Source: a virus
Virus record (IMG/VR): IMGVR_UViG_3300043493_000021
Span: 79 to 64,078 of that record
Direction: 5' to 3' (one strand)
Length of the DNA stretch: 64,000 nucleotides
Below, piece by piece: positions 31,694-46,010 of the stretch. The position numbers and the translations under genes are program-made. The stretch's first letter is position 1, and every line of letters starts with the position of its first letter. The notes below the pieces were generated by a model. The model saw nothing but the letters and a program-made list of their open reading frames with translations, did not search any database and had not been told where the DNA came from.

Positions 31694-31880
31694 ATCCGTC
31701 CATTCCCTTGTAGGCTTCGTCCTGAAGCTCCATCGCCCGCCTCAAACCGGCGACGTAGCCCTGATTGTATCGAACCCGGTCCAGAGTGCCGTCGATCTGG
31801 CCGATCAGTTCCTCGACATACATCTCCGCCTCTTTATTCACCTTCTCATGGGTGAACGCTCGAAGCGCCTCGGCTGACAT
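31686..31880 (-). CDS. Small conserved phage protein
   Basis: ATG 31880: MSAEALRAF...DRVRYNQGYVAGLRRAME; the Y...G...GL..A pattern is common upstream of phage GroES. Confidence 0.55.
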   Translation of the reverse strand: MSAEALRAFTHEKVNKEAEMYVEELIGQIDGTLDRVRYNQGYVAGLRRAMELQDEAYKGMDGYG

Positions 31881-32116
31881 TACTTCTTCTTGTCGTCGTG
31901 CTTCGTGTCGTGCGGCTCTTCCTTCTTCGCGGCCACGGGCGCGGGCTTTTTGTAGCCGTGCGCCTTCAGCGCGGCGTCTTCGACTTCCTCGGCGTCCTTG
32001 CCCTTCGGGTAATAGACGCCGTGTTTGTCGCCATCGTGGACGTCGACGATCCAGCCGTGCTCGGCATCGCCGCTCACCGTGACAACCGGGGGTGCCGCTT
32101 CCTGGGTCTCGCTCAT
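31880..32116 (-). CDS. Hypothetical protein
   Basis: 78 aa, RBS GAGGAG, coupled. Confidence 0.55.
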   Translation of the reverse strand: MSETQEAAPPVVTVSGDAEHGWIVDVHDGDKHGVYYPKGKDAEEVEDAALKAHGYKKPAPVAAKKEEPHDTKHDDKKK

Positions 32117-32119
32117 GGT

Positions 32120-32359
32120 CTACTCCTCTGCGAAAATGCTGTGGGCCATCTTTGGCCGACGGATCTGGATCTTCTTGTCCCCCGGCCAGACCGCCTGGCC
32201 GGTGGCGATCTGGATCGAAACCAACGCCGCCATCCGAAGCTGAGGCTCCGCGATCGTGCTCATGATCACCGGATCCCCGGCGGTATCGACGAGCCCATGC
32301 GTCGCGTCGACGATCTGGGCCATCAGCGACCGCATCAGGTATTCCGGGATCACGATCAC
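32120..32359 (-). CDS. Hypothetical protein
   Basis: 79 aa, stop/start overlap with the upstream gene. Confidence 0.5.
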   Translation of the reverse strand: MIVIPEYLMRSLMAQIVDATHGLVDTAGDPVIMSTIAEPQLRMAALVSIQIATGQAVWPGDKKIQIRRPKMAHSIFAEE

Positions 32360-33003
32360 TAGACGGCACCGCCAACGAACCGGCCCATCGCGTCGCGCAT
32401 CGCGCCACCAGCGGCCATCGGCGGTCGCATCGGCGGACCTCCCGGTGGCATTCCAGGCGGACCCATCGGAGCCCTCAATCCGGGAGGAAGCGGACCGCCC
32501 GGACCTCCGGGAGGCAATCCGGGTGGACCACCCGGCGGCATTCCCGGAGGTGGACCGCCTGGACCCGCGCCCGGAGGCGGTCCGGGCGGAGGCATCGGCG
32601 GTTTCGGCGGCGGCATCGGCGGCGGACCACCGGCACCCGGCGCACCACCGGGCGGACCACCGTGCGCGATGACGATGTTCACCTTCCCAATCCCGGGCTT
32701 GCCCTTCACTTTGCCGCCCTTCGCCAGCGCCTGAGTGTCGTCGATCCCGCCGCCAGCGGCGCGCGACTTCCGACCGGGGCTGAACGGCGGGGCCATGCCC
32801 TTCACCGCACCGCCGCCCTTCGCTTTGATTCGAGCGTGACCAAGCTCTTCCTTGATCAGCTTTTTGTCTTCCGCCTCGTCCGAGTGAACCGCCCCGCCAT
32901 CCTTCTTAATGGCACCGCCAGCGGCGTATCCGGCCTCACGCAAATCCCGTTTTCCGCGCTCTTGCGGGGTCATGCAGTTATCCACGGATGATCCTCCATA
33001 CAC
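32359..33003 (-). CDS. Low-complexity Pro/Gly-rich protein with seven x-x-G-G motifs
   Basis: YAAGGAI, KKDGGAV, KAKGGGAV, RAAGGGI, LAKGGKV, MAAGGAM, RFVGGAV. The true start may be ATG ~32973. Confidence 0.6.
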   Translation of the reverse strand: MYGGSSVDNCMTPQERGKRDLREAGYAAGGAIKKDGGAVHSDEAEDKKLIKEELGHARIKAKGGGAVKGMAPPFSPGRKSRAAGGGIDDTQALAKGGKVKGKPGIGKVNIVIAHGGPPGGAPGAGGPPPMPPPKPPMPPPGPPPGAGPGGPPPGMPPGGPPGLPPGGPGGPLPPGLRAPMGPPGMPPGGPPMRPPMAAGGAMRDAMGRFVGGAV

Positions 33004-33132
33004 GCGCCACCTTGCGCCACCAGGACGAGACTGGCCGATCTACGCTCTTTTTTGGGAAATACACAATCTTGTCCGGAATATCCTGGGGCGGGATCTTGTC
33101 TCGGTCGGGCCATCTCGGAAGACGGCTCTGGA

Positions 33133-33396
33133 TCACGCGCTTCCCTCGGCCTCCGTGCGATCCATCTTCTCCAGATCGATCGCCGCCCCAAAAGCCTTCC
33201 GCACATAGTCTCCACACCATTCGGTGTCGGGAACCTCGGGCCAGTAAGTATTGATCACCGGGAAAGGATCATTCGTCACCCGGTTCTTGGCGATCGTGAT
33301 CATCATCGGCACCGGTGGTCGAGCCCGGCAAACGCCTTGCGGATGACCCACGCTGATCCGCCGAAAGTAGCGGCACGAGCCGCATTCCTCACTCAT
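33133..33396 (-). CDS. Cys-rich small phage protein
   Basis: Start ATG 33396 (ATGA overlap): CGSCRYF...GVCRARPP...WPEV...WCGDY. Confidence 0.6.
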   Translation of the reverse strand: MSEECGSCRYFRRISVGHPQGVCRARPPVPMMITIAKNRVTNDPFPVINTYWPEVPDTEWCGDYVRKAFGAAIDLEKMDRTEAEGSA

Positions 33397-33614
33397 CCGA
33401 GATACCTCCTCCGCCGAGGCTTCACCCGAAAACCAGGAAACGGATCTTGCCACTCCCGAGCACGCCGCTCCGGGGGAAGCCGGTCGAACTGAGACATCCG
33501 AGTAACCGCCCGTTCGACCGCGCCAGCGTAGCCGTCGCGCGAAAAGTCATCGACGAACGGCGGAGCATCCGGCGGCAAAGGCTCGGGATCGGTGAAGATC
33601 GGCCTACTCATCAC
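33393..33614 (-). CDS. Hypothetical protein
   Basis: 73 aa, coupled between the portal and the Cys-rich gene. Confidence 0.45.
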   Translation of the reverse strand: MMSRPIFTDPEPLPPDAPPFVDDFSRDGYAGAVERAVTRMSQFDRLPPERRAREWQDPFPGFRVKPRRRRYLG

Positions 33615-36030
33615 CCTTGTCCGACATCAAACCCGCCGATAGCTTTTGCCCCTCGATCCCGGCCTGATGCGACCGGTCCTGAGCCTTCTGGTCCGCCTCG
33701 TGTTGCTGGTTGGCCTGGCCCTGGGCCCAGTCATGCTGACGATCCTGATCGCTTTGCGTCCGCTCATGCTGACGATCAGCCTCGTTTTGCCACGACTCGT
33801 GGGCATGATCCGCCGCCTTCATGCCCGCGTCATGCCCGGCTTTCAGCCGCATTCCCGCCAGTTGCATCGCGGCCCGCGTGTCCTCGCTCATCCGATCAGC
33901 CTCGGCCTGAGCCGCCTTCGCCTGGATCTCCGTCAGCTTGCCCTGATGGTCGAGCGCCTTCTCCTGCAAATGACCCTGGGTCTTCGCCTGATCCGCCTCG
34001 GCTTTGATCTGAGCGGCCTGAACCTTCGGATCCGGCGGTGGCGGAGCCTCATCCGGAGGCTGAGGCGGCATCATGAACTCTTCGGCATCCCCACCCGAGA
34101 GCACTTCAGCGGCACGGCGGAAGATCGCCCGCTGATTGACGATCGGGCCCTCTTTGTCGCCCAGCCCAAACTGAGGAAGCCCGCCCAGCATCACCAAACC
34201 CTGGATCTTCGTCAGCCGGTGGATCTGGGACGGCGTGTTCGGATCGGCCCGTGGAATGAGATCCGGAGCCAGCAACTCCTTCTTGATTTGCCATTTGCGA
34301 GCGGGGGCCTTGTTCCCGCGCGTCAAAACGTCCGGCTCCTCGGCGATCAGTTCACGGAGGAGTTCAAATTCTTGCTGCTGGGCGATATGGTCGTCCTTAT
34401 GCACCGCGCCAGGAACCTGGGAGATCGCCTCGATGTAACTCATGATCGTGCCGACGGGCGTGTTCCCCAACCGGCCCTCACCGACGGGTAGCTCGACCAC
34501 TCCGGCTATCCGGCGGACGTCGCCCTCCAGTTTCGTGAGCATCGCCATCGATGACGCCGACGGCTCTTTGTATGGCCACGACATCAAATTGTCGGACAAC
34601 TTCGACTGACCCGTCGTCGGGATCTTCACCACCTCCCCGACACCCGGTCGCATGATCGGGTTCTCCAGCCGAGAAGCGGCTGACTGAGACATCGCCCAGG
34701 CCGGGAAATTGGCGAACAACCCAGCATCCACCACCGATCTCTGGATCATCGTCGCGGCCTGAGTCGGATTGCCGACGATGTGAATGAGACCCATATCGTA
34801 GAAGCCAAACCCAGGAATGAAGCCGTATTTCACGAACCTCGGACGGATCCGATGGTCCGTGTCGCCCTTCTTCCAGTTCCGCCGAATAGCCAAAATCTGG
34901 CGGCTATCGACGTCGATGCTCACCCGATAAGGCAACGGATACCCGGGCTCCTCGCCCGTTTCATCCTGATCCAGCAAAGCCAGCGATCCGATCAGGTCAT
35001 GCGCCGTCCCCGAACCGAGTTCGCAACAACTCTCGTAGACCGTGTGGTCGAAATCCCGAGGCAACATCGGTTGCGGCGTCGTCCCCTGGGTCTCACCAAT
35101 CACCAGTTCCGTATTGGAAGTAATGCCCGTGGGATGGGACAACGGCATGTCCAGATAGTGCCCCATCACCTGCAACCGACGCATCGTCGACTGAGACACC
35201 TTCGCCCGCTTCGTCACCCGCCCCGCCGCTTCCAAATGCGACGGATCGCCCTGGACAATCAGATCCTGAGCCATCACCCAGCGAGAGATCGGCTTCCTTT
35301 CCAGCGGACACCGAAACACCTCCTTGAACGCGATGCCGATGATCGCCCGGTGGAACAACATCTTCGACGTGTCGGGGTAATATCCGCGATCACCCTTCGT
35401 CAGATACCAGTTCATGTCCCGCTCAAGCGCGTCCGCGAGATCATCGCCCGCCGCATCCGTCTCCGTCTGAGGAGCCTGACCCGGCTCGCTATCGGACGTA
35501 ATCCCCTGGGAAACCGCCACTTGTGGCGTGCCTCCGCCGACCTGATCGCCAACCGCCTTCGGCGTCGAGATCCGTTCCACTTTCACCGGCCCGGCCACCG
35601 GCAACATCTCCGCCCGCGCCGTGCCCCACAACTTCATCGCCGTCTCTAAAAGCGCCGTCACCACACCCTGAGATACCGTCCCATCCGATTGCGGAGACGA
35701 CACCGGATCGTTCAGCTTAATCCCGAGATAATTCGCCGCCTGGTTAGCCGTCTCCTCCCATTGTTGGCGACCACCCTCATCGCTCTCGATCCCCTCCAGG
35801 AGATACGAAGCCAGCGACGCAAGGTCCATTTCATCCAGGTCTTCCGCCAGATTGCGGTCGAAGTCGTCGCTCCCAAACTTAAATTCTTCCTCGACCTCAT
35901 CGCCCGTCCCGATCTCAATGGAAATCAGCCCGTCATCCCCGATCGATACCGACACCGCCCCGTCGGGCTTCGGATCCTCCACGATCTCGACCGGAGGACG
36001 GCGGTCTCGCATCAGTGGGATGACGGCCAT
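33604..36030 (-). CDS. Portal protein
   Basis: 808 aa directly after terL: FDRNLAE.LD...IESDEG.R..W..., PVKVE, MNWYL, RFVKY.FIPG.GFY..GL.H, D.G...N.PA, G......GE, with a C-terminal coiled coil. Confidence 0.85.
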   Translation of the reverse strand: MAVIPLMRDRRPPVEIVEDPKPDGAVSVSIGDDGLISIEIGTGDEVEEEFKFGSDDFDRNLAEDLDEMDLASLASYLLEGIESDEGGRQQWEETANQAANYLGIKLNDPVSSPQSDGTVSQGVVTALLETAMKLWGTARAEMLPVAGPVKVERISTPKAVGDQVGGGTPQVAVSQGITSDSEPGQAPQTETDAAGDDLADALERDMNWYLTKGDRGYYPDTSKMLFHRAIIGIAFKEVFRCPLERKPISRWVMAQDLIVQGDPSHLEAAGRVTKRAKVSQSTMRRLQVMGHYLDMPLSHPTGITSNTELVIGETQGTTPQPMLPRDFDHTVYESCCELGSGTAHDLIGSLALLDQDETGEEPGYPLPYRVSIDVDSRQILAIRRNWKKGDTDHRIRPRFVKYGFIPGFGFYDMGLIHIVGNPTQAATMIQRSVVDAGLFANFPAWAMSQSAASRLENPIMRPGVGEVVKIPTTGQSKLSDNLMSWPYKEPSASSMAMLTKLEGDVRRIAGVVELPVGEGRLGNTPVGTIMSYIEAISQVPGAVHKDDHIAQQQEFELLRELIAEEPDVLTRGNKAPARKWQIKKELLAPDLIPRADPNTPSQIHRLTKIQGLVMLGGLPQFGLGDKEGPIVNQRAIFRRAAEVLSGGDAEEFMMPPQPPDEAPPPPDPKVQAAQIKAEADQAKTQGHLQEKALDHQGKLTEIQAKAAQAEADRMSEDTRAAMQLAGMRLKAGHDAGMKAADHAHESWQNEADRQHERTQSDQDRQHDWAQGQANQQHEADQKAQDRSHQAGIEGQKLSAGLMSDKGDE

Positions 36031-36040
36031 CCAGCAACTC

Positions 36041-37750
36041 CTATGTCCGGGCTATCGCGTAAGGCACGCCCATCGGCTTCCGATACCGTTTACGCTCCAA
36101 CTCCTGCATCTCAAATTCTATCTTCCGCAAGACCACGCCGTTCTTCCTGATCCAGCCCAAACCCATCGACATGCAATCCACGTAATCGTCATGCGCCCCA
36201 TACGGAAAAGACGCGCACTCATCGATCACATCCTGAGCCCAGTCCTTGTCCGGCGCATGGACCACACCCCCATCCCACGTCTCGATCCCGGTCGCCGCGT
36301 CCTTCCGGTAATCCCCTGAAAACAAACCCTCGACCGCCTTCAACCGAGCCACCTTCGACGTCTCGACCTTCACCAAAACCGTGATCCACGCTCCGTCCTG
36401 ATAGATCCGGCAGATCTCGTCATGCACGTCCCGGCCCCGCGTTCGGTGCTCGATCAAAAGGTAATCCGCCTTCCGCCGACGGCACGTCACCGCCACCCTT
36501 TCGACCAGTTCCGCCAACGGCAACCGAGCCCGCCACGCCTCCAAAAGCAAAACCAGCGGCTCACCTTCCTCCCCGGCGAACGCGCCCAAGACCACGCACG
36601 CATTGTAATCGTTCTGAGTGCCCTCCTCGACCGCCGTGTCCAGAATAACGAGCACGGTCCCCAGTTCCGGGTAATCATCCCGTTGCCACAACCGCCACCA
36701 GTCCTTCCGAATGATCGAACCACCCCTCACCCCAGGGATCTGATTGTATTGCGAATCCCACGCATACTGGCCCTTTTCAGCCTGAAGAGCCCGCACCAGA
36801 TCGGGCGGAAATCTCTCAGGCCAGCACAACGTCCCCTCCGCCTTCGCCATCAAAGACCCTGGTAAAACCCTCGGCTCGCCCCGCGCATTCGTCGTCAGTC
36901 CCGCCAGCAACGTCCCATCCGGACCCAGAGCACGAGGGTCCGTCCAAACCTGATCAGCCTCCCCATCCTCGTTCCGCCGCATGACCACCCGAGAAATCCG
37001 TAACGGATCAAATTCCATTGGTATCGAGATAAACTCGTAGCCCTGGCCATACTTAATAAGCGTGCCAGTAGCGTCATCTTCATGCGTGCGTTGCTGAAGA
37101 TTGATGACCACGCTCTTCCCCAGATCGTTCAGCCGATCCGGCATGATCTCCCGAACCCACTTGTTCGTCGAACCGCGAACATCGTCCGACTCAACATTAT
37201 TTGGATTATTAAGATCGTCACAAAGGATGCGATCACCGCGCCAACCAGTAGTGCCGCCACCAGTAGAAGTAACCCGCTTCCAGCCCGTTTTAGCGTTCTC
37301 AACGACCTCACTCCCCTCCCGCGTCAGCTTCACCCGGTCACCCCAGCACAAACGATAAACCGGATCATTCACGATCCGGGCGAATCGGATGTTGTCCCGC
37401 TCCGGAATGCCCGTCGAATACGACGCACTCAAATACCGGAGCCAAGGCATGTTCTGAGGACCCCACTCCCACGCGGGCCACAAACAATTCAGCAACGAAG
37501 ACTTCATAGACCCAGGCACCACATTAATGTTCACCCGGTTCAAATGACCGTCCGTCACCGCCATCAAAACATCGCACAAGCAGTCTAAAACCCAGCCCTC
37601 AATTAGCTTTTTTTCCGGCTCCAGCACCCGCCAAAACATCCGGACAAACGACAACAAATCGTCCTCCGCGTCCTTCGCCATCGCCAGGATCTTCCGACGA
37701 CGAACCAGTTCAGCCTTCGCCGCCTCCCGAACCGCCTCGCTCGCCGACAT
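36041..37750 (-). CDS. terL: Terminase large subunit
   Basis: NINVVPGSMKS (Walker A), G.RGDRILCDD (Walker B), QQRTHEDD, W.SQY.Q.P, DTA, FPYGAHDDYVD nuclease end. Start taken at ATG 37750. Confidence 0.92.
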   Translation of the reverse strand: MSASEAVREAAKAELVRRRKILAMAKDAEDDLLSFVRMFWRVLEPEKKLIEGWVLDCLCDVLMAVTDGHLNRVNINVVPGSMKSSLLNCLWPAWEWGPQNMPWLRYLSASYSTGIPERDNIRFARIVNDPVYRLCWGDRVKLTREGSEVVENAKTGWKRVTSTGGGTTGWRGDRILCDDLNNPNNVESDDVRGSTNKWVREIMPDRLNDLGKSVVINLQQRTHEDDATGTLIKYGQGYEFISIPMEFDPLRISRVVMRRNEDGEADQVWTDPRALGPDGTLLAGLTTNARGEPRVLPGSLMAKAEGTLCWPERFPPDLVRALQAEKGQYAWDSQYNQIPGVRGGSIIRKDWWRLWQRDDYPELGTVLVILDTAVEEGTQNDYNACVVLGAFAGEEGEPLVLLLEAWRARLPLAELVERVAVTCRRRKADYLLIEHRTRGRDVHDEICRIYQDGAWITVLVKVETSKVARLKAVEGLFSGDYRKDAATGIETWDGGVVHAPDKDWAQDVIDECASFPYGAHDDYVDCMSMGLGWIRKNGVVLRKIEFEMQELERKRYRKPMGVPYAIART

Positions 37751-37992
37751 CAGATCGATCCCCCGTTGGGTTCCTGAAATTCCGGGTGATCCTCCTTGAA
37801 CCGCTCCCACGAAGGGCACCCATAGCCGACATCACCCGCGCAATCGGACGCCGGGGCCGCACCACATATCGGGCACGGCTCGAAATCCCAGATCGGCTCG
37901 GCCCTCGTTTCAGTCGGGTCCATCGTTCCAGCCCAGCCTTCCAGCTTTCATTGCCAGCTTTCTACCTCGAAGGCTGAAAGAAAGCTGACACG

Positions 37993-38235
37993 TCACGCCA
38001 CAAAGGGGGATGGACTTCCATCATTTCCATCAACTCCATCATTTCCATCATTAGGTAGAGAAGCTAACCAACGAGCCCGCGCTCCAGCCATCTCAGACTC
38101 GTGCGCGAACCACACCCGCTCACTCATCCGACGAGCCAGATCCCGTAACAATCTGGTCCGCTCCGGAACCACGAAACCCGTTCCGATCACCGAACCATCC
38201 CAGCCCAGTTCGTCGCCCATGACACACCGTCCCAT
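37993..38235 (-). CDS. Possible hypothetical protein in the terS-terL gap
   Basis: 80-aa ORF only; no motif. Confidence 0.25.
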   Translation of the reverse strand: MGRCVMGDELGWDGSVIGTGFVVPERTRLLRDLARRMSERVWFAHESEMAGARARWLASLPNDGNDGVDGNDGSPSPFVA

Positions 38236-38236
38236 T

Positions 38237-38640
38237 CCTGAGAATAATTTAGCGGATGTCAGGCTACCGAATTATTGGGTCATATTGACATACCCGGAAA
38301 TTATTCCGGATCGTTCGCGCGCGCGCTCCCCTTACCGGAAGAGAAGCATCGGACCCATCACCAGCAAAAGCCAAACCGCCCCAAACCCAGCCACACCCAA
38401 TACAAACCGAAACGACGCAATTCCGAAAAACCAAACCCCGGAAATTATCCGCGATATCCCAGCCATCACCCAAATCTCCTTTTTACCCTAATGTTAATAT
38501 ATCGCGCAGAAATTTGAGGCCGTGGCAAGCTCTACCGATAAGCGATTAATTCACTCGCGTAGGGGCGAGGGGGGGGGGTCGAGTGGGCATCCCCGCCCCC
38601 ATGCCCATAGGGCCATGGGTGCGTAACCGATGGGTGACAT
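38237..38640. other. Candidate packaging/terminus (pac/cos) or origin region
   Basis: AT-richer, likely non-coding. Direct repeat CCCGGAAATTAT at 38293-38304 and 38437-38448, 10-G run at 38569-38578, and GC/AT skew inversion. Confidence 0.45.
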
Positions 38641-38731
38641 ACCCACGGGACCGCGCCCCATGATCGCGGGATCATGTGCAATCGTTCGTTTGCGGATGCA
38701 CTACGCCATTGTAAAGACGTTAGAGCGCCGG

Positions 38732-39319
38732 TTAATGCTTTGTCGTCAATGCGTTAGGATCGACCACGGGGCCAGTCTCACCGGCCAGTGCCATCAGTTC
38801 GGCTTCGCTCAGGTCTTCCAGGTTGCGGATGACTCGGACGTCCTTGCGTTCGACAATGTGCCCGTGAAGCTTCGCGAGGTCCATCAGCGCACCGCGCCGG
38901 TCCGCCAACTCGACTTTGAGGGAGCGACCATACTTCGTGACCGATGACGATACGCTCTGGACCGCCGCCGCCTGGTTGTCGGTCAGGTCAGCGCTCGGCT
39001 TGAGCGTCATCCCAGCGGCCTCCCAATCGTAGAAGGTGCGCGGATCAGCGAAGGCCATGCAGGCGAGCGCGTGCGAGATTCTATCCTTGGTGACGACATA
39101 CTGGGCGGCGGCTTTAGCGGTTGCCTCTTCGAGTTTCCGACGTGCGTCGGCGAGAACGGGTGCGAGTTGGGCGTTTTCGAGGAGTCGACCGGCATTCTTG
39201 CTAATCGCCTGAATACTGGTTGTCGGCTTGCAGTTATAGGCTTTGCGGTAAGCATCGGCGGCATTGTTCATGCCGCTTTCGAGATAGAAGCGGATGAATG
39301 CCGCTTGCTTGCCGGTCAT
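38732..39319 (-). CDS. terS: Terminase small subunit
   Basis: MTGKQAAFIRFYLESG.NN.ADAYRKAY...A.RLL.N..., A.MAFAD..., KVELADRRGAL..LAK..G: Terminase_2-like pattern. Confidence 0.85.
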   Translation of the reverse strand: MTGKQAAFIRFYLESGMNNAADAYRKAYNCKPTTSIQAISKNAGRLLENAQLAPVLADARRKLEEATAKAAAQYVVTKDRISHALACMAFADPRTFYDWEAAGMTLKPSADLTDNQAAAVQSVSSSVTKYGRSLKVELADRRGALMDLAKLHGHIVERKDVRVIRNLEDLSEAELMALAGETGPVVDPNALTTKH

Positions 39320-39379
39320 GGTTTTGCCTCCGGGCGCGATGGTTTGCGGCCCGGAGTAGTGCGATCTGGTGCGGTATCG

Positions 39380-39661
39380 TCAAGCCCGTCGTTTTTTGGG
39401 CGCTGATTTGGGTATGGGTGTGACCTGCGGTTCAGGTGTCGCGAGCGGTTTCGCGGGCGGTTGCCCGAGATTGACGACGGCGTGTGGCGTGACCTGCTGG
39501 CCAGGTTGCTTCGCGGCGTGTTGCTGGGTTTCGCGTGCATCGGCGCGATCCAGTAGGTGCTCGACTTGCTGGGCGATTGATCGGTGCTCATCGCGCGCCA
39601 TTTCGCGGAGTGCGGCGACTCGCTCCACTGGGAGTCGGATGGTGATTTGTTCCGTAGCCAT
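39380..39661 (-). CDS. Ribbon-helix-helix (Arc-like) DNA-binding protein
   Basis: ATG 39661 with RBS GGAG: EQITIRLPVERVAALREMARDEHRSIAQQVEHLL. Confidence 0.7.
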   Translation of the reverse strand: MATEQITIRLPVERVAALREMARDEHRSIAQQVEHLLDRADARETQQHAAKQPGQQVTPHAVVNLGQPPAKPLATPEPQVTPIPKSAPKKRRA

Positions 39662-39826
39662 TTGGTTAAGCTCCAATAGTTGACGATCCTTGGATATTGG
39701 TCGCGGTTCATTGGGATGCAAGACACTGGGATTGCCCGGTAGTGTCCGGCGTTCAACGCATATCAGCCATGCACGGATCGTGACATTATTTGGGGTTGTT
39801 TGGGGGTTATTCGACACCATCTAGGC

Positions 39827-39876
39827 TTGACGTGTTTTTATCTGACTAGCCTAACCCGCTCCGGGGTCACGGGGTT
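39827..39876 (+). promoter_or_regulatory. Putative promoter plus third copy of the leader core
   Basis: TTGACG-N16-GCCTAAC immediately followed by CCCGCTCCGGGGTCA closed by AACCCG/CGGGGTT. Confidence 0.45.
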
Positions 39877-40060
39877 GAGGAACAAAAATATCGCTACCCT
39901 GGCAATCCAGGCGATGACGTGGGGCCGGTTCATTCCGCCGCGTTGACACTAGAACCCAACTGACTTTTGAGCCTTCCTGAGCGCCCGATCATCGGACGCT
40001 GAGGTGGGCTCACATTGAGTCTGACGGTGCCCGGACGGTTATCCGGGCGGAGGCTATAAC

Positions 40061-41632
40061 ATGAGTAAAGAGAAGAGCGCGGAAGTTGCCGCGTTGTTGC
40101 GGTCGCGTTGTGGGCTGATTTGGATCGTTTCGCGTGAAGAGGCGCGGGCTGAAGCCAGCGTTTTTGAAGCGGCGGCTTCGGCTGGATACCTCGCTCGTTT
40201 CTGGGATTGTGGGCAAGGCGTGACGGACTCCAGCGGTCGCGTTCAGCCGATAGCGTCGGCTGACCCGTCCGATATGCTCCGCACGATCGCGGAGCGTGGC
40301 GACCGTGGCGCGGAACGGAATGTCTGGGTGCTTCGCGATTTGGCACCTTGGCTTGCTGGTCCTATCGGTATGGCGACGGTGCGCCAGCTTCGCAATTTGG
40401 CGCGTACGTTGCCGACGGTTCCGAGAGACTCGGCGCAAGCGGTCATCGTGCTTTCGACGTCGGCTGACGTGCCGGCGGAGTTAGCCAATCATTGCGCGGT
40501 GCTGGAATGGCCGTTGCCTGGGCGTGGCGAAATTGCCGCCATACTGGACGCGGCCATAGCGGCGTTGCCTGAAGAGCTTCAGAGCGGCGCGGCGGCGAAT
40601 GGAACGCGCGACGCGGCGATTGACGCGGCGGTGGGCCTGAGTGGAGAGGAAGCGGCGGGTTGCTTCGCGAAGTCATTGGTTCGGCTTCGGCGGATCGACC
40701 CGGCGACCGTGGCATCCGAGAAGCGGCGCGTGATTTCACGCGAAAAGCTGCTTGAGTGGTTCGATCCTTTACCGGGCGGGCTGGATGCGGTTGGCGGGCT
40801 GGACCTTCTGAAAGGTTGGCTGGGCACGCGGAAAAACGCCTACTCGCAAGCGGCTCGCGACTATGGGCTACCGGCTCCGAAAGGCGCGTTGCTTGTCGGG
40901 GTGCCTGGTTGCGGTAAATCGCTGACGGCGAAGGCGATTGCGACGGCCTGGGGCGTGCCTTTGCTTCGGCTGGATCTGGGCTCGCTCAAGAGCAAGTTCG
41001 TCGGCGAATCGGAAGGTAACCTGCGGCGGGCGTTGAGCGTGATCGATGCCGTGGGCCGGTGTGTCGTCTGGATCGACGAAGTGGAGAAAGCACTGGCGGG
41101 CGCGACGCAAGGCGCGGCTGACGGTGGCGTTTCAAGCGATGCACTGGGAACAATCCTAAGCTGGATGCAGGATAGAACCGGCGAAAGCTTTGTGATTGCG
41201 ACCGCTAATGACGTGTCCGCGTTGCCTCCTGAGTTGATGCGGAAAGGTCGTTTCGATGAGGTCTGGTTTGTCGATTTGCCCACGGGCGTTGAGCGTGGGG
41301 AGATCGTGCGAGCGGCGTTGCGCTCGCATGGCCGGGAACGTCTGGCATCGCCGGAAGGTGACTGGGGGCCGGTTGTGGCGGCGACTCAGGGGTTCACCGG
41401 GAGCGAGATCGCGGCATTGATACCCGATGCACTCTATGCGGCCTTTGCTGACGGCGGGCGAGAGATCGTGGAGCGTGACCTTCTGACGGCGGCGGCATCG
41501 GTGGTGCCGTTGGCCAAGACGGCGAGCGAGAAGATTGCCGCCTTGCGGGCCTGGGCTGACGGGCGGGCGCGACCGGCGACGACTCCGGAACGTGACGGCG
41601 AGCGCGCGAGCGTTCGGGCTTTAGATATCTGA
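40061..41632 (+). CDS. AAA+ ATPase, Ycf46-like
   Basis: Walker A GVPGCGKS, Walker B VVWIDEVEK, ATAN, LPPELMRKGRFDE. Degenerate N-terminal AAA domain LLRSRCGLIWIVSREE. Confidence 0.85.
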   Translation: MSKEKSAEVAALLRSRCGLIWIVSREEARAEASVFEAAASAGYLARFWDCGQGVTDSSGRVQPIASADPSDMLRTIAERGDRGAERNVWVLRDLAPWLAGPIGMATVRQLRNLARTLPTVPRDSAQAVIVLSTSADVPAELANHCAVLEWPLPGRGEIAAILDAAIAALPEELQSGAAANGTRDAAIDAAVGLSGEEAAGCFAKSLVRLRRIDPATVASEKRRVISREKLLEWFDPLPGGLDAVGGLDLLKGWLGTRKNAYSQAARDYGLPAPKGALLVGVPGCGKSLTAKAIATAWGVPLLRLDLGSLKSKFVGESEGNLRRALSVIDAVGRCVVWIDEVEKALAGATQGAADGGVSSDALGTILSWMQDRTGESFVIATANDVSALPPELMRKGRFDEVWFVDLPTGVERGEIVRAALRSHGRERLASPEGDWGPVVAATQGFTGSEIAALIPDALYAAFADGGREIVERDLLTAAASVVPLAKTASEKIAALRAWADGRARPATTPERDGERASVRALDI

Positions 41633-41731
41633 TCATGATGGTTGCGGCATCCTTCGGGGTGCCGCTTCCATGATGACCCGATCATGGGACATTGGCGACG
41701 CCTGGCGCTAACCGGGCGGGGAGTTAAGAGC

Positions 41732-42568
41732 ATGAGAGTTTCGACGTTGCGACCGGGCTTGCTCGTGTCGCTTTCGACCACCATCAAAGGCAACGTGAGC
41801 TATCGCGTAACCGAAATCGAAGCCGAGCACTTTACCGGCGACGGAACGAAGCGGGCGCGCTGGGAGACGGACAAGCTCATACTTGAGCCAGCCGAGCACG
41901 AGGAAGCCGTGAAGCTTCGCGGCAAGGCGCGGTCCTTGGTGACGGCGGTTTGTTCCGCGTCATCGTTCGGGTTGCTTTGCCCGGAAAGCTCACGGGAAGC
42001 GCTCAACGCGGCGGTGATGGAAGCTCAGGCGATTGCCGACGCTTTCAATTCGCGGGCGAGCGTTACCCGGATGGCGGTGCATGTCATCGTCGGCAAGATT
42101 GGCGACGACGACGCGCAAGCGGTTCGCGCGATCAATGCCGAGGTGCGCGGGCTCATGGAGGCGATGGACCAGGGCTTGCGGAAGCTGGACGTGGCGGCGG
42201 TGCGCGATGCCGCCAACCGGGCTCGCGAGCTTAGCGCGATGCTCACGCCGGAAGCGGCTGGACGGGCTCAGGCGGCGATTGACGCCGCGAGGAGCGCCGC
42301 ACGCCGGATCGTGAAGGCCGGGGAAGAAGCGGCCATCGAAATCGACGCGGCGACGCTCCGGGTTATCCGGGAAGGGCGGGCGGCGTTCCTTGACCTTGAA
42401 GAGGCCGCGCCGATTGCGGACTCGGTGGTCACTGGGCGGGCGCTGGACCTGGACCCTGGGGTGCAGGTTGAGGCGGGCGGCACGGTGGCGGCGACCATTG
42501 ACCTTGACGACGCGCCGCTTGTGCTGAGGGAGGCGGGACCGGTTGCTCAGTTCGGGTTCGAACTGTGA
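41732..42568 (+). CDS. Hypothetical alpha-helical protein (AAA+ cassette partner 1)
   Basis: ATG 41732 after GGAG..AAGAG; 278 aa. Confidence 0.65.
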   Translation: MRVSTLRPGLLVSLSTTIKGNVSYRVTEIEAEHFTGDGTKRARWETDKLILEPAEHEEAVKLRGKARSLVTAVCSASSFGLLCPESSREALNAAVMEAQAIADAFNSRASVTRMAVHVIVGKIGDDDAQAVRAINAEVRGLMEAMDQGLRKLDVAAVRDAANRARELSAMLTPEAAGRAQAAIDAARSAARRIVKAGEEAAIEIDAATLRVIREGRAAFLDLEEAAPIADSVVTGRALDLDPGVQVEAGGTVAATIDLDDAPLVLREAGPVAQFGFEL

Positions 42569-42909
42569 CCTGCGACACGCAAACGCTGCCCGGGCAGACT
42601 TTCACCGAGCGCAAGCAAGAGGTTCGCGACGCCGTCGCGAGCCTTGCGCGGCTCTTGGCGAGCGGCTCAGCTAAGGCGATTGTTTCCCGGGCAACGGGAA
42701 GCATCGCGTTTCGCGGCTGGGCTGGGGGCGAATACGCCCGGATCACGGACGCTTGTGCATACCGGCTCGTTATGGCGACCGGCTCCGCCATGGCGAGGCA
42801 AGCCATAGCGCGGGCGGAGGCACTGGCGGGGCGCACGGTTGATCGAGCGGCGCTGACGGCGGGCATCCATAGCCACGACGGGGGCCGGACGTTTCATAAA
42901 GGACATTGA
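42565..42909 (+). CDS. Hypothetical protein (AAA+ cassette partner 2)
   Basis: GTGA-coupled; ends GIHSHDGGRTFHKGH; ITDACAYR motif. Confidence 0.65.
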   Translation: MTCDTQTLPGQTFTERKQEVRDAVASLARLLASGSAKAIVSRATGSIAFRGWAGGEYARITDACAYRLVMATGSAMARQAIARAEALAGRTVDRAALTAGIHSHDGGRTFHKGH

Positions 42910-43020
42910 CCATGCTGGAAGGCGGGCCGGGATCGTTCCCGGCTACGCCTTCCACAATGGCCAGCGTGTTTCGGATCATTGGCGCGGTGCCTCGCGCGGA
43001 CTCAGGGGCGGAGTGATGAC

Positions 43021-43323
43021 ATGCGAATCACGGTGCAATTCGGACCATGGAATCCCAAGAGATACGGGAAGCCATGGATTGCCAAAGTGACGGCCTGGCC
43101 GGTGGGCAAGGCTCCGACTCTGGAGTTCGGCGCACTGGTGGGGACGACGCCAGAGATTGCCGCCGAGCCTGGGACGGTGGTCCGGTGGGGCCAGCGTGAC
43201 TACCGGGGCAACGGCACGGAACGCCACTGGGGCGTTGTGCTGGATGACGGCACGATAGAGCCGAGGAGCAATGAGGAGTGCCGCGCGCACTGGCTCGCAA
43301 CCATGGCGGAGGCGGTGACATGA
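43021..43323 (+). CDS. Hypothetical protein
   Basis: ATG 43021: N.KRYGKPWIAKV...G.VVRWGQRDYRGN. Confidence 0.55.
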   Translation: MRITVQFGPWNPKRYGKPWIAKVTAWPVGKAPTLEFGALVGTTPEIAAEPGTVVRWGQRDYRGNGTERHWGVVLDDGTIEPRSNEECRAHWLATMAEAVT

Positions 43324-43514
43324 GCATGAGCAAGGACCAGCAACACCTTTTCAATTTCCTGATGGAGGCGAGCAACCGATTGCGTGCGTTCCAGATGTTT
43401 GAGATCGGCCAAGGTCACGGCGCGGTATCGGGGGGCGTCAATCGTGAGGTTGTCCATGCCCTGACACACGTCTGGACCGCCGTGAAGTTAATGGAACAAA
43501 ACGACGGAGGCTGA
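43320..43514 (+). CDS. Hypothetical protein
   Basis: ATGA-coupled, 64 aa. Confidence 0.5.
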   Translation: MSMSKDQQHLFNFLMEASNRLRAFQMFEIGQGHGAVSGGVNREVVHALTHVWTAVKLMEQNDGG

Positions 43515-43516
43515 CC

Positions 43517-43681
43517 ATGGTCATATGGCGGTCGCGCGCCTGGCACGAGAAGAAGGCCAGGAAAGCGGCGGCGCGGGCGGCTGAAATCGCGCGGTTGCGA
43601 GCGATAGAGGACGCACGGGAAACGATGGACGCAATGCTTGCGTCGGTGGTGCGGCATTTGTGTTTTCCGCACACGGTCTGA
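43517..43681 (+). CDS. Hypothetical protein
   Basis: RBS GGAGG, 54 aa (MVIWRSRAWHEKK...); below the ORF-track cutoff. Confidence 0.45.
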   Translation: MVIWRSRAWHEKKARKAAARAAEIARLRAIEDARETMDAMLASVVRHLCFPHTV

Positions 43682-43775
43682 CCACGCCGGATGACATGCC
43701 AGGGCCGTCCTGGGTGTCATCCGCAGCGGTCAGCGCTGAACCCGAGTCCCGGGGATCAGGGGCGGAGTTGAGACA

Positions 43776-44027
43776 ATGCAAGTTTACGAGGAACTATATT
43801 TGCCGGTTGACCAGCTACCCCCGGAGGGGGACTGGACCCTCTATTCCGGCAACAACACGCACAACTCATGGCGGCGACCAGGGCCGGTGCTGGTGGCCCT
43901 GGAGGCCCTGGCGGAGTGGATGAGAGCCCACGCCCCCATGAGCGGGCCGCACGACCCGTTCCCCCTCCTGGTGGCGGCTCGCGAGGCCGTTGACGCGGCC
44001 AGGCTGGACGCGATGGGGGGGCGCTGA
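43776..44027 (+). CDS. Hypothetical protein
   Basis: 83 aa, RBS GGAG. Confidence 0.5.
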   Translation: MQVYEELYLPVDQLPPEGDWTLYSGNNTHNSWRRPGPVLVALEALAEWMRAHAPMSGPHDPFPLLVAAREAVDAARLDAMGGR

Positions 44028-44029
44028 CC

Positions 44030-44323
44030 ATGCGGACCACTTACGGGCCGGTGGCCATGACTCAAGCGATCTGGGACCAATACACGCGGGCCGAGAAAGA
44101 TGCGGCGCGCGACTTGTCCGGCCTGAACCCCCAGCTAATCGGGCTGGAGGGTAGCCGGATCGAAGTGACGGACGCTTACGGGGAGAGACGGCGCTTCTGG
44201 GTGTCGCGTTCTACCGGTTGGCGACCATGCCACCTTGAGATCAGGCGGCGCGGCAACTGGGGCGGCGACGTGGCGACCGGCCCCTACAAAGACATCAGGG
44301 TCGTAGATCGCGGCCCCTTCTGA
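44030..44323 (+). CDS. Hypothetical protein
   Basis: 97 aa: LNPQLIGLEGSRIEV...RRFWVSRSTGWRPCHLEI...GG..A. Confidence 0.55.
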   Translation: MRTTYGPVAMTQAIWDQYTRAEKDAARDLSGLNPQLIGLEGSRIEVTDAYGERRRFWVSRSTGWRPCHLEIRRRGNWGGDVATGPYKDIRVVDRGPF

Positions 44324-44334
44324 CCATGCCGATA

Positions 44335-44361
44335 GGCCAAACCTACCCCCTAGGTTTGGCC
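44335..44361. terminator. Perfect 11-bp intergenic hairpin (terminator or processing site)
   Basis: GGCCAAACCTA-CCCCC-TAGGTTTGGCC; no long U-tract. Confidence 0.45.
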
Positions 44362-44423
44362 CTTCGCGATGGTCCGACCGGACGATCCCGCCGCCCCCCG
44401 GATGTGGGGCCGAGGACAAGAAC

Positions 44424-44714
44424 ATGCCGAAGATGATTACCTACCGAGTCCAGTTGACCCCCGCTGAAATCGACGCTGACGGCGTTGTTTCGTTCGTCAT
44501 CATGGACCCGGGGACACGGGAATATCTCTACGAGACGGACAATCTGGCGAAGCTCCAGGGTGAAATCCGCGCGCTGGTGGCGGACGTTTTCCGGCAAACG
44601 GCGGTTTGTTGGGTGCGACCGATGCCGGGAGCGAAGAAGCCCCCCGGCTTCGATAGGGCCATGGATCAGGTGGCGACGCTACGCTACGTGGCCCCCACCC
44701 CGGTTGAAGTCTGA
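44424..44714 (+). CDS. Hypothetical protein
   Basis: 96 aa, RBS GAGGA. Confidence 0.5.
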   Translation: MPKMITYRVQLTPAEIDADGVVSFVIMDPGTREYLYETDNLAKLQGEIRALVADVFRQTAVCWVRPMPGAKKPPGFDRAMDQVATLRYVAPTPVEV

Positions 44715-44724
44715 CCACCACACG

Positions 44725-44747
44725 GGACGCCCCCAGGCGGGGCGTCC
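44725..44747. terminator. Intergenic 9-bp hairpin
   Basis: GGACGCCCC-CAGGC-GGGGCGTCC; no U-tract. Confidence 0.35.
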
Positions 44748-44804
44748 AAGTGGTAGCCAGTTCGGTTATCAGCGCGCCCCCGCGAGGGGCTGGAGTCAAA
44801 GCAA

Positions 44805-45056: not shown

Positions 45057-45059
45057 ACC

Positions 45060-45263: not shown

Positions 45264-45265
45264 GC

Positions 45266-45451: not shown

Positions 45452-45453
45452 AA

Positions 45454-45672: not shown

Positions 45673-45763
45673 CCATGCTGTAACCGGCTCCACGGGGGAG
45701 CCGGGAACAGGATAGCCAGACGGCATCCCCCATGCCCCCGGGGAGCGGGGCTGAGTATGAGTC

Positions 45764-46009: not shown

Positions 46010-46010
46010 C

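What the first reader, a model, noticed from the sequence alone, without database searches (positions are those of the whole stretch)
34500..42500. Strand-composition skew inverts in the terS-terL gap, independent of coding strand
Seen (hand counts on the + strand): 37501-37560 in terL has C21 G10 A16 T13; 39121-39180 in terS has G22 C14 T17 A7. Both genes are on the minus strand, so this is not a codon effect. By eye the switch is near the 10-G run at 38569-38578 and the bias fades over a few kb. Each strand is G/T-rich reading away from the switch. Inference: a local mutational signature of the physical genome end/pac site or of a replication origin. If it is the end, the AAA+/small-ORF block is near the first-entering or last-entering DNA.
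Basis: partly seen in the sequence, partly recalled or inferred. Interest (0 to 1): 0.65.

Follow-up and report, generated by a model that had tools for sequence, protein, structure and literature searches.

The report
Origin-like skew switch beside phage terS
In this uncultured soil phage, a conserved gene-free spacer between the two terminase genes is the centre of a strong, mutation-type strand bias that flips there whatever the gene direction and fades over about 7 kb each side. It probably marks where the phage's DNA is repeatedly opened for replication or packaging.

Summary
Cumulative GC skew has its global minimum at 38,488, for the window and for the whole 70.2-kb circular contig. terL and terS are both minus-strand genes.

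At four-fold degenerate sites, the strand running 5'->3' away from the spacer is G/T-rich on both sides. Plus-strand keto skew (G+T versus A+C) is -0.64 just to the left and up to +0.56 to the right. It declines almost linearly to zero at about 7-8 kb.

The bias has these properties:
- It is confined to synonymous and non-coding sites.
- It is uniform across codon families.
- It is positional, because the same genes are unskewed in other genomes.
- It is opposite to the coding strand in ten "wrong-way" genes (genes reading toward the spacer) of four related phages.

The vertex is a neutral core of about 0.55 kb that holds conserved DNA blocks, including a 23-nt G-run block identical in three phages.

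The polarity is that of a replication origin. It is opposite to what 5'->3' end resection predicts, and opposite to the skewed arms at SPbeta's mapped packaging (pac) site, which this scan had noted before on other DNA.

The most likely reading is a pac-proximal start site of outward DNA synthesis that leaves one strand single-stranded. Origin versus physical end remains unresolved, because no read data were available.

The parts
31500..38490 (-). Left arm. The minus strand (5'->3' away from the core) is G/T-rich at synonymous and non-coding sites, with a near-linear decline.
   Evidence: Plus-strand keto skew at four-fold sites per 1-kb bin going left: -0.64, -0.62, -0.53, -0.49, -0.35, -0.34, -0.13, then about 0. 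The terL+portal slope is -0.28 logit/kb, chi2 10.1.
36041..37819 (-). terL (large terminase). Pipeline gene callers start it at 37750.
   Evidence: phrog_38 at 1e-65. Coding GC4 +0.59, AT4 -0.62. A 569-aa call appears in independent assemblies.
33604..36030 (-). Portal-like protein, 808 aa.
   Evidence: Weak match to phrog_1216. 54% identical to the protein following TerL in L001. Coding GC4 +0.40, AT4 -0.57.
32662..32991 (+). Wrong-way gene in the left arm, called by the pipeline.
   Evidence: Called in L076 and at the same place in the P0006 contig. Coding GC4 -0.45, which follows the arm and not the coding strand. AT4 -0.50 does not follow the arm.
38332..38469 (-). Short hydrophobic ORF (44-45 aa). 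Its ribosome-binding site and start lie exactly at the left boundary of the neutral core.
   Evidence: AAGGAG-N6-GTGATG is conserved in the window, L053 and L071. The peptide is conserved with L071. A 44-aa gene was called in the Logan assembly.
38480..38514 (.). AT-rich core flanked by a 16-nt inverted repeat (38442-38457 / 38499-38514). This is the point of the sharp skew boundary.
   Evidence: Keto skew goes from -0.49 to about 0 between 38424 and 38524.
38557..38582 (+). Conserved G-run block, GCGTAGGGGCGAG(G9-10)TCG.
   Evidence: Its first 23 nt (GCGTAGGGGCGA + G9 + TC; the window has G10) are identical in the window, L053 and L071, while terS proteins are only 64-82% identical. It was found only in L053 among IMG/VR contigs. 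The L088 contig ends inside the run and L073 ends about 35 nt before it.
38621..38731 (.). Further conserved non-coding blocks: GCGTAACC, TACATAC, and CGGGATCATG..CAA.CGTTCGTTTGCGG containing the palindrome CAAACG-NN-CGTTTG.
   Evidence: No support for a conserved RNA fold: covariation terms are positive on both strands.
38500..39050 (.). Neutral core (keto skew about 0), made of the conserved blocks plus the 3' two-thirds of terS.
   Evidence: The parallel plateau in L053 spans 550-1150. terS 3' thirds have GC4 -0.14, -0.08 and +0.09.
38732..39319 (-). terS (small terminase), a wrong-way gene of the right arm.
   Evidence: Pfam PF03592 at 5e-13. Coding GC4 -0.28 overall. The 5' third is -0.65 here, -0.38 in L071 and -0.33 in L053.
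39380..39661 (-). Ribbon-helix-helix (RHH) protein, 93 aa, with a P/Q/A/K-rich tail. A wrong-way gene of the right arm.
   Evidence: Weak RHH_1/RHH_5 and Arc-like hits. A 93-aa gene was called in the Logan assembly. Homologous N-terminus in L088. Coding GC4 -0.30, AT4 +0.53.
39050..46500 (+). Right arm. The plus strand (5'->3' away from the core) is G/T-rich, with a near-linear decline.
   Evidence: Plus-strand keto skew at four-fold sites per 1-kb bin going right: +0.19 (all sites in minus-strand genes), +0.56, +0.39, +0.34, +0.21, +0.16, +0.14, +0.12, then about 0.
40061..42909 (+). AAA+ ATPase three-gene cassette, the first plus-strand genes of the right arm.
   Evidence: PF00004 at 7e-28 and phrog_8638 at 3.5e-171. 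Coding GC4 +0.41, +0.34 and +0.19 here, against -0.62 to +0.12 for AAA+ homologs elsewhere.

Best explanation
The terS-terL spacer carries a conserved cis-acting DNA element. It is most likely the packaging-initiation (pac) region next to terS, acting also as a start site for outward DNA synthesis. That would be a late or recombination-dependent, origin-like site.

Proposed mechanism: from the two borders of a core of about 0.55 kb, the strand that runs 5'->3' away from the core is repeatedly left single-stranded, either as lagging-strand template or as displaced strand. Single-stranded cytosine (and adenine) deaminates. Sites free of selection therefore lose C and A and gain T and G on that strand. 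Exposure falls roughly linearly to zero about 7-8 kb out on each side.

Shown:
- the position, polarity, amplitude, extent and coding-independence of the bias;
- its restriction to synonymous and non-coding sites;
- its positional nature;
- its recurrence in relatives that have the spacer;
- the conservation of the spacer blocks.

Inferred:
- that the cause is single-strandedness;
- that the process is DNA synthesis starting here;
- that the conserved blocks are pac or origin signals.
For: 1. Origin-type polarity. The cumulative GC-skew global minimum is at 38488, and the same holds inside the spacer of relative L053, at 495.
2. Independence from gene direction. Ten genes reading toward the core in four phages all have C/A-rich coding strands at four-fold sites: window terS and RHH; L053 terS, HTH and RHH; L071 terS; L088 terS and three more. 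The strand-specific model beats the coding-specific model by dlnL 32-43.
3. The sign flips inside one co-directional gene string: RHH, terS, small ORF, terL, portal.
4. Mutation-like character. The bias affects only codon position 3 and non-coding DNA. G exceeds C in 7 of 8 codon families on both arms. The fraction of C at four-fold sites falls from 0.41 to 0.20 on the outward strand.
5. Positional nature. AAA+, TerL and portal orthologs elsewhere are unskewed.
6. The decline is smooth, nearly symmetric and near-linear, and it crosses gene borders. This resembles the gradients seen in mitochondrial DNA that follow time spent single-stranded (my own knowledge).
7. The neutral core holds blocks that are conserved although synonymous sites between the phages are saturated at about 25% identity. 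They include a mutationally fragile G9-10 run. A 2-nt-spaced palindrome and the absence of RNA covariation point to DNA sites.
8. Relatives without the spacer show no such feature (L001; L079).
9. Presumed highly expressed capsid genes at 29-31 kb are unskewed.
10. Precedent: ICP1 has its pac site in a 1.3-kb ORF-less space next to its inferred rolling-circle origin (PMC7145576).
11. Toolkit of a headful, recombination-dependent phage: Terminase_2 terS, DnaB-like helicase, RusA, and a DnaQ-like exonuclease with Erf. Rec modules are near-universal in headful phages (PMC12315714). The assembly is circular.
Against: - No experimental mapping of ends, origins or single-stranded DNA exists for this uncultured phage.
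- No iterons or DnaA-type boxes were found, and no motif is shared with the replisome-organizer/helicase region 14 kb away.
- An ordinary bidirectional origin should skew the whole genome rather than about 7 kb. A special feature is therefore needed, such as delayed lagging-strand priming, short displacement synthesis or recombination-dependent starts.
- The right arm starts about 0.5 kb from the conserved blocks, and terS next to them is nearly neutral.
- A smaller local coding-strand component exists (M3).
- The left boundary coincides with a ribosome-binding site and start codon, which would also suit a transcription start.
- Similar sharp skew switches in other soil phages (L067, L081) coincide with divergent gene units.
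Confidence: 0.4

Rival explanations
1. Outward transcription. Two strong promoters at the borders of the core drive leftward transcription (small ORF, terL, portal) and rightward transcription, the latter running antisense through the terS 5' part and RHH into the AAA+ operon. Transcription-associated deamination of the non-template strand, or R-loops favoured by G-rich RNA, builds the skew.
For: - Most skewed genes have G/T-rich coding strands, and a local coding-strand term is significant (M3 over M1, dlnL 15).
- The left boundary is sharp and sits at a conserved ribosome-binding site and start.
- A weak promoter-like match lies upstream of the G run, and TTAACC-16-TACAAT points leftward at the terS stop.
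- L067 and L081 show skews that follow divergent gene units.
- GC skew is known to promote R-loops downstream of promoters (PMC3787257, abstract listed).
Against: - It requires an antisense promoter inside terS that is conserved in four phages, and none was found.
- The leader-like motif CCCGCTCCGGGG lies on the plus strand at about 39.85 kb. This suggests the AAA+ unit starts in the RHH-AAA+ intergenic region and not in the spacer.
- The sign flips within a co-directional gene string.
- The skew declines smoothly inside and across genes.
- It does not track expected expression, because the capsid genes are unskewed.
- The plus-strand promoter-like site at 38219-38248 lies in DNA of the opposite skew.
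Confidence: 0.2
2. Break-and-resection footprint. Terminase cuts in the spacer, and the phage's DnaQ-like 3'->5' exonuclease, working with Erf, leaves 5' single-stranded tails on both sides. The outward strand is the one exposed.
For: - The polarity fits 3'->5' resection and contradicts 5'->3' resection (inference).
- The window encodes an RNase_T/DnaQ-type exonuclease (61212-61880) overlapping an Erf-family annealase (61835-62776).
- Modules of this type are reported in lambdoid phages (PMC12315714).
- A kb-scale decline is what a distribution of resection lengths would give.
- The conserved blocks abut terS, as pac sites do.
Against: - In a headful series, virion ends accumulate on one side of pac only, and both strands of the terminal redundancy are exposed. 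A symmetric V is therefore not the obvious outcome.
- The unpackaged end would have to be rescued into progeny.
- The exonuclease's polarity and role are inferred from family membership only.
- DnaQ-like nucleases are said usually to inhibit recombination (PMC12315714).
Confidence: 0.12
3. Fixed physical genome ends (cos site or short terminal repeat) lie at the G-run block, with end-specific damage or repair creating the bias.
For: - A conserved G-rich 23-nt block. Cohesive ends of lambda and P2 are G-rich (from memory).
- Two short independent contigs stop in, or about 35 nt before, the homopolymer.
- The gene layout, with structural genes leaving one side and early genes the other, resembles cos phages such as Corndog.
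Against: - Four assemblies of this phage, plus the L053 and L071 contigs, read through the site.
- The 70.2-kb contig closes as a circle through a gene.
- Contig breaks at a G10 run have a trivial technical explanation.
- The nearest cultured TerL relatives are T1-like and Aaphi23-like phages, which package by headful (from memory).
- The usual 5'->3' processing of ends predicts the opposite polarity.
Confidence: 0.08
4. No DNA-processing site at all. The pattern would be mosaic ancestry, or selection on mRNA composition such as avoidance of C-rich Rho-loading sites, in two divergently oriented blocks.
For: - Cassette-specific codon skews do exist. The L058 AAA+ gene and its neighbour have GC4 -0.62 and -0.90 with unchanged AT4.
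- The terS N-terminal third and the RHH region are the variable, module-like part.
Against: - The gradient is smooth across genes and continues into non-coding DNA.
- GC and AT skews flip together.
- The wrong-way genes follow the DNA strand.
- The same fine-scale profile appears in L053 although synonymous sites are saturated.
- Orthologs elsewhere are unskewed.
Confidence: 0.07

Closest known systems
Replication-origin strand asymmetry of bacterial chromosomes (GC-skew switch at oriC; Lobry 1996, from memory)
   Same: The sign change has G>C and T>A on the strand read 5'->3' away from the site (a cumulative minimum). It is independent of gene orientation and visible at synonymous sites.
   Different: Here the effect is local, reaching zero by about 7-8 kb in a 70-kb circle. 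It is far stronger (four-fold-site keto skew up to 0.6-0.77), has a 0.55-kb neutral core, and lacks recognisable initiator boxes. The replisome-organizer gene is 14 kb away.
Gradient of four-fold-site skew along vertebrate mitochondrial DNA with time spent single-stranded (Reyes 1998; Faith and Pollock 2003, from memory)
   Same: Loss of C and A and gain of T and G on the exposed strand, with a near-linear dependence on position.
   Different: This is a double-stranded DNA tailed phage with two mirror-image gradients from one centre. Strand-displacement replication is not known for it.
ICP1 pac site and rolling-circle origin hub (Barth et al. 2019, PMC7145576)
   Same: A gene-free spacer of about 1 kb holds the pac site next to an inferred late origin, linking replication start and packaging.
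   Different: The phage is unrelated. That hub was mapped by read coverage, and no local mutational skew was reported. Here only sequence evidence exists.
SPbeta pac / genome-opening region between yonP and yonR (Kohm et al., bioRxiv 10.1101/2021.11.22.469490), and this scan's earlier notes on mirror-skewed arms there
   Same: A non-coding region at a divergent junction with mirror-image strand composition around a packaging site.
   Different: Measured here. The arms are only about 300-400 nt, non-coding, and purine-rich with AGGGG-type boxes. Their polarity is opposite: G-rich reading toward the centre. They do not extend into synonymous sites of genes.
pac sites of headful phages with Terminase_2 small subunits, such as SPP1 pacL-pacC-pacR (from memory)
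   Same: A cis site immediately beside terS, conserved together with the terS type.
   Different: Here the candidate site lies downstream of terS in a spacer before terL. No cut has been mapped, and no flanking skew is known for SPP1.
R-loop-primed origins with G runs (ColE1 RNA II; mitochondrial CSB II; from memory)
   Same: A conserved G run next to an AT-rich stretch at the point where strand asymmetry starts.
   Different: No promoter, RNA or hybrid is demonstrated here, and a three-layer G-quadruplex motif is not conserved in the relatives.

Membership tests
Origin-type replication strand asymmetry | GC skew changes sign, with G>C on the strand read 5'->3' away from the site (cumulative-skew minimum) | tested here: met
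   Global minimum at 38488. Minimum at 495 in the L053 spacer.
Origin-type replication strand asymmetry | Asymmetry is independent of gene orientation | tested here: met
   Ten wrong-way genes in four phages follow the DNA strand. M1 beats M2 by dlnL 32-43. A smaller coding-strand term coexists.
Origin-type replication strand asymmetry | Asymmetry extends from the origin to the terminus | tested here: not met
   Four-fold-site skew reaches about 0 by 7-8 kb on both sides of a 70-kb circle.
Origin-type replication strand asymmetry | Initiator-binding repeats or an unwinding element at, or next to, the initiator gene | tested here: inconclusive
   There is a 30-nt AT-rich core with flanking inverted repeat and two CCCGGAAATTAT copies. 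No motif is shared with the replisome-organizer/DnaB region at 52-55 kb.
Origin-type replication strand asymmetry | Copy-number peak or fork divergence in replicating DNA | not testable with these tools
pac site of a headful-packaging phage | Cis site in or beside the small-terminase gene, conserved with the terS type | tested here: met
   Conserved blocks lie 30-175 nt past the terS stop. The first 23 nt of the G-run block (G9 form) are identical in three phages, and the block is absent from relatives with other layouts.
pac site of a headful-packaging phage | Terminase of headful type; permuted, terminally redundant genome | tested here: inconclusive
   terS is Terminase_2. The nearest cultured TerL relatives are T1-like and Aaphi23-like, at only 24-34% identity. 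The assembly is circular. A Rec module is present. No PDB relatives were found by sequence.
pac site of a headful-packaging phage | Read-start pile-up or a mapped cut at the site | not testable with these tools
Contig ends in or near the G run in L088 and L073 are ambiguous.
cos site / fixed ends | Unique termini, so that assemblies end at the site or show a terminal repeat | tested here: not met
   Assemblies from JGI (three) and Logan (one) read through. There is no terminal repeat, and the contig junction lies inside an open frame of at least 1,156 aa.
Transcription-associated strand asymmetry | The non-template (coding) strand is the G/T-rich one in every gene of the unit | tested here: not met
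   terS, RHH and their homologs in L053, L071 and L088 have C/A-rich coding strands.
SPbeta-type mirror-skewed pac arms (earlier notes of this scan) | Short non-coding arms, each strand G-rich reading toward the cut region | tested here: not met
   In SPbeta (L084), GC skew is +0.35 to +0.71 left of the centre and -0.35 to -0.41 right of it. Here the polarity is reversed and the effect extends kilobases into genes.
Single-strand-exposure (mitochondrial-type) mutational gradient | C and A depletion on one strand at four-fold sites, graded with position | tested here: met
   On the outward strand, four-fold base fractions change as follows: C 0.41 to 0.20, A 0.09 to 0.05, G 0.38 to 0.55, T 0.12 to 0.19. 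The gradient is near-linear.
Single-strand-exposure (mitochondrial-type) mutational gradient | Demonstrated single-stranded intermediate | not testable with these tools
   Needs strand-specific mapping of single-stranded DNA in infected cells.

The most novel reading that the evidence does not exclude
The V-shaped skew is a heritable footprint of how this phage processes the break it makes for packaging. Terminase cuts in the conserved spacer, and the phage's DnaQ-like 3'->5' exonuclease, working with Erf, leaves 5' single-stranded tails on both sides. An alternative route to the same footprint is that the G-run element primes outward displacement synthesis through an R-loop. In either case the polarity and reach of synonymous-site skew would report the polarity and length of single-stranded intermediates. 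pac/origin hubs and enzyme polarity could then be inferred from sequence alone in uncultured phages.
Probability: 0.15. Interest if true: 0.8.

Novelty: new variant of a known kind. Interest (0 to 1): 0.6.

Why it matters
Strand asymmetry in phage genomes is usually written off as following gene direction. Here a very strong bias flips within about 50 nt, ignores gene direction and decays linearly over about 7 kb from a conserved non-coding element beside terS. At four-fold sites G:C is roughly 3-4 to 1.

If the cause is recurrent single-strandedness, the pattern is a sequence-only marker of a cis-acting replication or packaging hub in an uncultured phage. It also gives the size and polarity of the intermediates.

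That opens a hard question to direct test with one infection time course or one virion read set: where do pac sites and late origins lie in metagenomic phages, and are they coupled? The pattern also warns gene callers and codon-usage analyses that local mutational fields can exceed genome-wide signals.

Tried and rejected
- **Plain coding-strand switch.** Rejected. The coding switch is at 39.7-40.06 kb, whereas the skew switch is at 38.5-39.05 kb.
- **[quoted passage not shown]** Examined seriously. terS alone is marginal (P=0.02). The idea was rejected after curating gene models and pooling replicates.
- **Intrinsic codon usage of the AAA+ cassette.** Rejected by 13 other contexts. L058 shows that such cassette effects do exist elsewhere.
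- **Amino-acid composition effect.** Rejected.
- **Conserved RNA structure in the spacer.** No support on either strand. No Rfam family and no tRNA were found.
- **Iterons shared with the replication-gene region.** None found.
- **Identity with SPbeta-type skewed pac arms.** Tested. The polarity is opposite and the scale different.
- **Polymorphism-based mutation spectrum.** Impossible, because three other assemblies are 100% identical to the window.
- **Megablast against cultured phages.** No match.
- **PDB sequence search for TerL and TerS.** No match.
- **DNA of the 70.8-kb relative P0006.** Not retrievable.
- **Partial leader copy at 39.9 kb as part of the leftward unit.** Not supported. 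The motif is on the plus strand.
- **Shared element between this spacer and the L067 skew switch.** None found.

Full report
**Context**

The window is bases 79-64078 of a single 70,216-bp contig with 62% G+C. The contig closes on itself: an open frame of at least 1,156 codons on the minus strand runs across the contig junction, and there is no terminal repeat.

It is an uncultured soil phage. There is no megablast match among cultured phages, and the best cultured TerL is 34% identical. Three further assemblies are 100% identical to the window over 1.6-20.6 kb, and all read through the region in question.

Both 60-nt hand counts and the G10 run are exact. Cumulative GC skew has its global minimum at 38,488, in the window and in the whole genome. 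terL (phrog_38, 1e-65) and terS (Pfam Terminase_2, 5e-13) are both on the minus strand.

Coding switches strand only at about 39.7-40.06 kb, between a ribbon-helix-helix (RHH) gene and an AAA+ ATPase gene. Minus-strand genes at 0.6-28 kb have almost no skew, so the strong skew is local.

**It is not a codon or protein effect**

At four-fold degenerate sites, coding-strand GC skew is:
- +0.59 in terL and +0.40 in portal;
- +0.41 in the plus-strand AAA+ gene;
- -0.28 in terS and -0.30 in the RHH gene;
- -0.04 in 58 background genes.

AT skew behaves in the mirror sense. G exceeds C in 7 of 8 codon families on each arm.

Amino-acid usage and codon positions 1-2 of TerL, portal and AAA+ are the same as in unskewed orthologs. 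Only position 3 differs: TerL GC3 skew is +0.46 here against +0.03 in the ortholog.

The same genes are unskewed elsewhere. AAA+ homologs in 13 other contexts, including Mycobacterium phage Corndog, have GC4 from -0.62 to +0.12. TerL and portal of L001 (71% and 54% identical, terS abutting terL, no spacer) have +0.08 and +0.17.

**Independence from gene direction**

I first suspected that terS was merely a background-type gene lying between two divergently oriented, skewed blocks. On its own, terS is indeed only marginally different from background (P=0.02).

With curated gene models the picture sharpened. The RHH start is supported by pipeline calls, and RHH and HTH homologs were recognised in relatives. 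Six genes reading toward the spacer in three phages then pool to GC4 -0.30 (null -0.04, sd 0.07) and AT4 +0.27 (null -0.16, sd 0.13). None of 20,000 resamples was as extreme.

A fourth phage, L088, adds four more genes, at -0.15, -0.22, -0.37 and -0.44. Synonymous sites of terS are saturated between the window and L053 (23-28% identity), so those two are independent replicates.

A site-level logistic model with a DNA-strand-specific local term beats one with a coding-strand local term by 32, 12 and 43 log-likelihood units, for G/C, A/T and keto/amino contrasts respectively. The best model has both terms, with the strand-specific term about 1.7 times the coding term.

**Shape**

Using pipeline gene calls, plus-strand keto skew at four-fold sites per 1-kb bin is:
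- going left: -0.64, -0.62, -0.53, -0.49, -0.35, -0.34, -0.13, then about 0;
- going right: +0.19 (minus-strand genes only), +0.56, +0.39, +0.34, +0.21, +0.16, +0.14, +0.12, then about 0.

The decline crosses gene borders and is detectable within terL plus portal (chi2 10.1).

At fine scale the vertex is a zone:
- A sharp left boundary, where keto skew goes from -0.49 to 0 between 38,424 and 38,524.
- A neutral plateau to about 39,050.
- A rise through the terS 5' third and RHH.
- A dip in the RHH-AAA+ intergenic region.
- A rise again in AAA+.

L053 shows the same sequence of features. In three phages the terS 5' third is strongly wrong-way while the 3' third is at background.

Weakly constrained peptides mirror the local bias. 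On the left, the small ORF and the L053 TerL N-terminus are rich in G, V, F, L and W. On the right, the RHH tails are rich in P, Q, A, T and K.

**The spacer**

The spacer is about 910 bp in the window, about 460 bp in L053 and about 540 bp in the P0006 relative. Its parts, from left to right:
- A left part that is conserved only in composition (A/C-rich on the plus strand). It contains a short hydrophobic minus-strand ORF whose ribosome-binding site and start sit at the boundary. The peptide is conserved with L071.
- An AT-rich stretch of about 30 nt, bracketed by an inverted repeat.
- Blocks conserved far above neutral expectation. The block GCGTAGGGGCGAG(G9-10)TC is identical in the window, L053 and L071. 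The others are GCGTAACC, TACATAC, and a 35-nt block containing the palindrome CAAACG-NN-CGTTTG.

Consensus folding gives no covariation support on either strand. Rfam and tRNA scans are empty. The blocks therefore look like DNA sites.

The element occurs only in the clade whose terS is at least 63% identical. More distant relatives have a gene, or nothing, between terS and terL. L079 shows no local skew, while L081 shows moderate skews that follow its divergent gene units.

**What the polarity allows**

The G/T-rich strand is the one read 5'->3' away from the core. This is the polarity of:
- a bidirectional origin, where that strand is the lagging-strand template or displaced strand;
- outward transcription, where it is the non-template strand;
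- 3'->5' resection from a break.

It is the opposite of 5'->3' resection at an end.

I tested this scan's earlier lead that mirror-skewed arms flank SPbeta-type pac sites. In SPbeta itself the mapped yonP-yonR region does have arms. They are about 300-400 nt, non-coding, built of AGGGG-type boxes, and of the opposite polarity. That lead does not transfer.

**Weighing the mechanisms**

Against sense transcription:
- The flip occurs within one co-directional gene string.
- Ten wrong-way genes follow the DNA strand.
- The decay across genes is smooth.
- The capsid genes are unskewed.

Antisense transcription from the core could rescue the transcription reading. However, no conserved promoter was found, and a leader-like motif on the plus strand at about 39.85 kb suggests that the AAA+ unit starts in its own intergenic region.

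The phage encodes a DnaB-like helicase, a replisome-organizer-like protein with an HNH domain, RusA, and a DnaQ-type exonuclease overlapping an Erf annealase. That is a known Rec-module type, and Rec modules are near-universal in headful phages (PMC12315714). There is no skew feature at the replication genes, so ordinary fork passage leaves little trace here. The spacer signal therefore needs longer-lived single strands.

ICP1 gives a precedent for a pac site in a gene-free space next to a late origin (PMC7145576).

My preferred reading is a pac-proximal start site of outward DNA synthesis, at 0.40. The alternatives are outward transcription (0.20), break plus 3'->5' resection (0.12), fixed ends (0.08), and mosaic ancestry or selection (0.07).

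**Limits**

- No read-level, expression or replication data could be obtained.
- Two short contigs ending in or near the homopolymer are ambiguous.
- The background null for relatives was taken from the window's own genome.
- terS of L071 (82% identical) is only partly independent of the window.
- Statements about mitochondrial gradients, ColE1/CSB II, SPP1 pac and the packaging mode of T1 and Aaphi23 rest on my own knowledge, not on tools.

Noticed in passing
window 61212-62776: Rec module made of a DnaQ/RNase_T-type (3'->5') exonuclease gene overlapping an Erf-family annealase gene. RusA lies at 57049-57561 and a DnaB-like helicase at 53620-55008. The protein at 52304-53623 combines a weak replisome-organizer-like N-terminus with an HNH nuclease domain.
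   Followed up: partly
window 38332-38469 (-): A 44-45-aa hydrophobic ORF rich in G, V, F, L and W, with a good ribosome-binding site, upstream of terL. The peptide is conserved in L071, but in L053 only the start is conserved. It may be a real small membrane protein, a leader peptide, or a by-product of G/T-rich DNA.
   Followed up: partly
window 38017-38052: Four tandem 9-nt units (TCCATCATT and TCCATCAAC variants). In the minus-strand ORF 37993-38235 they would encode (N/V)DG repeats. This part of the spacer is absent from L053.
   Followed up: no
L067:6000-9500 (IMGVR_UViG_3300021478_000028): Another sharp local skew inversion in a different soil phage, with GC skew going from -0.4 to +0.2-0.3. 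It is centred on a 630-bp divergent intergenic region that runs from an A/C-rich tract to G clusters. Flanking genes have GC4 +0.63, +0.65 and +0.88. No sequence is shared with this spacer.
   Followed up: partly
L058:322-2334 (IMGVR_UViG_3300032001_000028): The AAA+ gene and its neighbour have extreme C over G at four-fold sites (GC4 -0.62 and -0.90) with unchanged AT skew and raised GC3, at the very start of a 33-kb contig. This is either a cassette-specific codon bias or the other side of a similar switch.
   Followed up: no
window 40061-42909; L050 (Mycobacterium phage Corndog gp96-gp95): The AAA+ ATPase is 49% identical to Corndog gp96. The three-gene cassette (AAA+, phrog_11021 protein, 114-aa protein) is widespread in IMG/VR contigs of otherwise unrelated phages.
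   Followed up: partly
genome junction (window about -78 to 390 and 66188-70138): The contig is a closed circle cut inside a large minus-strand gene. The 1,277-aa ORF at 66188-70021 probably continues across the junction, so its N-terminus lies at the start of the contig.
   Followed up: partly
L081:11932-13387 (Logan SRR29078261): A distant relative carries four tandem DUF6197 paralogs among about 4.4 kb of small genes inserted between terS and terL.
   Followed up: no
window 57000-61000: A second, much weaker V in cumulative GC skew, together with the global minimum of cumulative AT skew (58657). It lies at the divergent junction 58364/58487 and coincides with the coding-strand switch.
   Followed up: no
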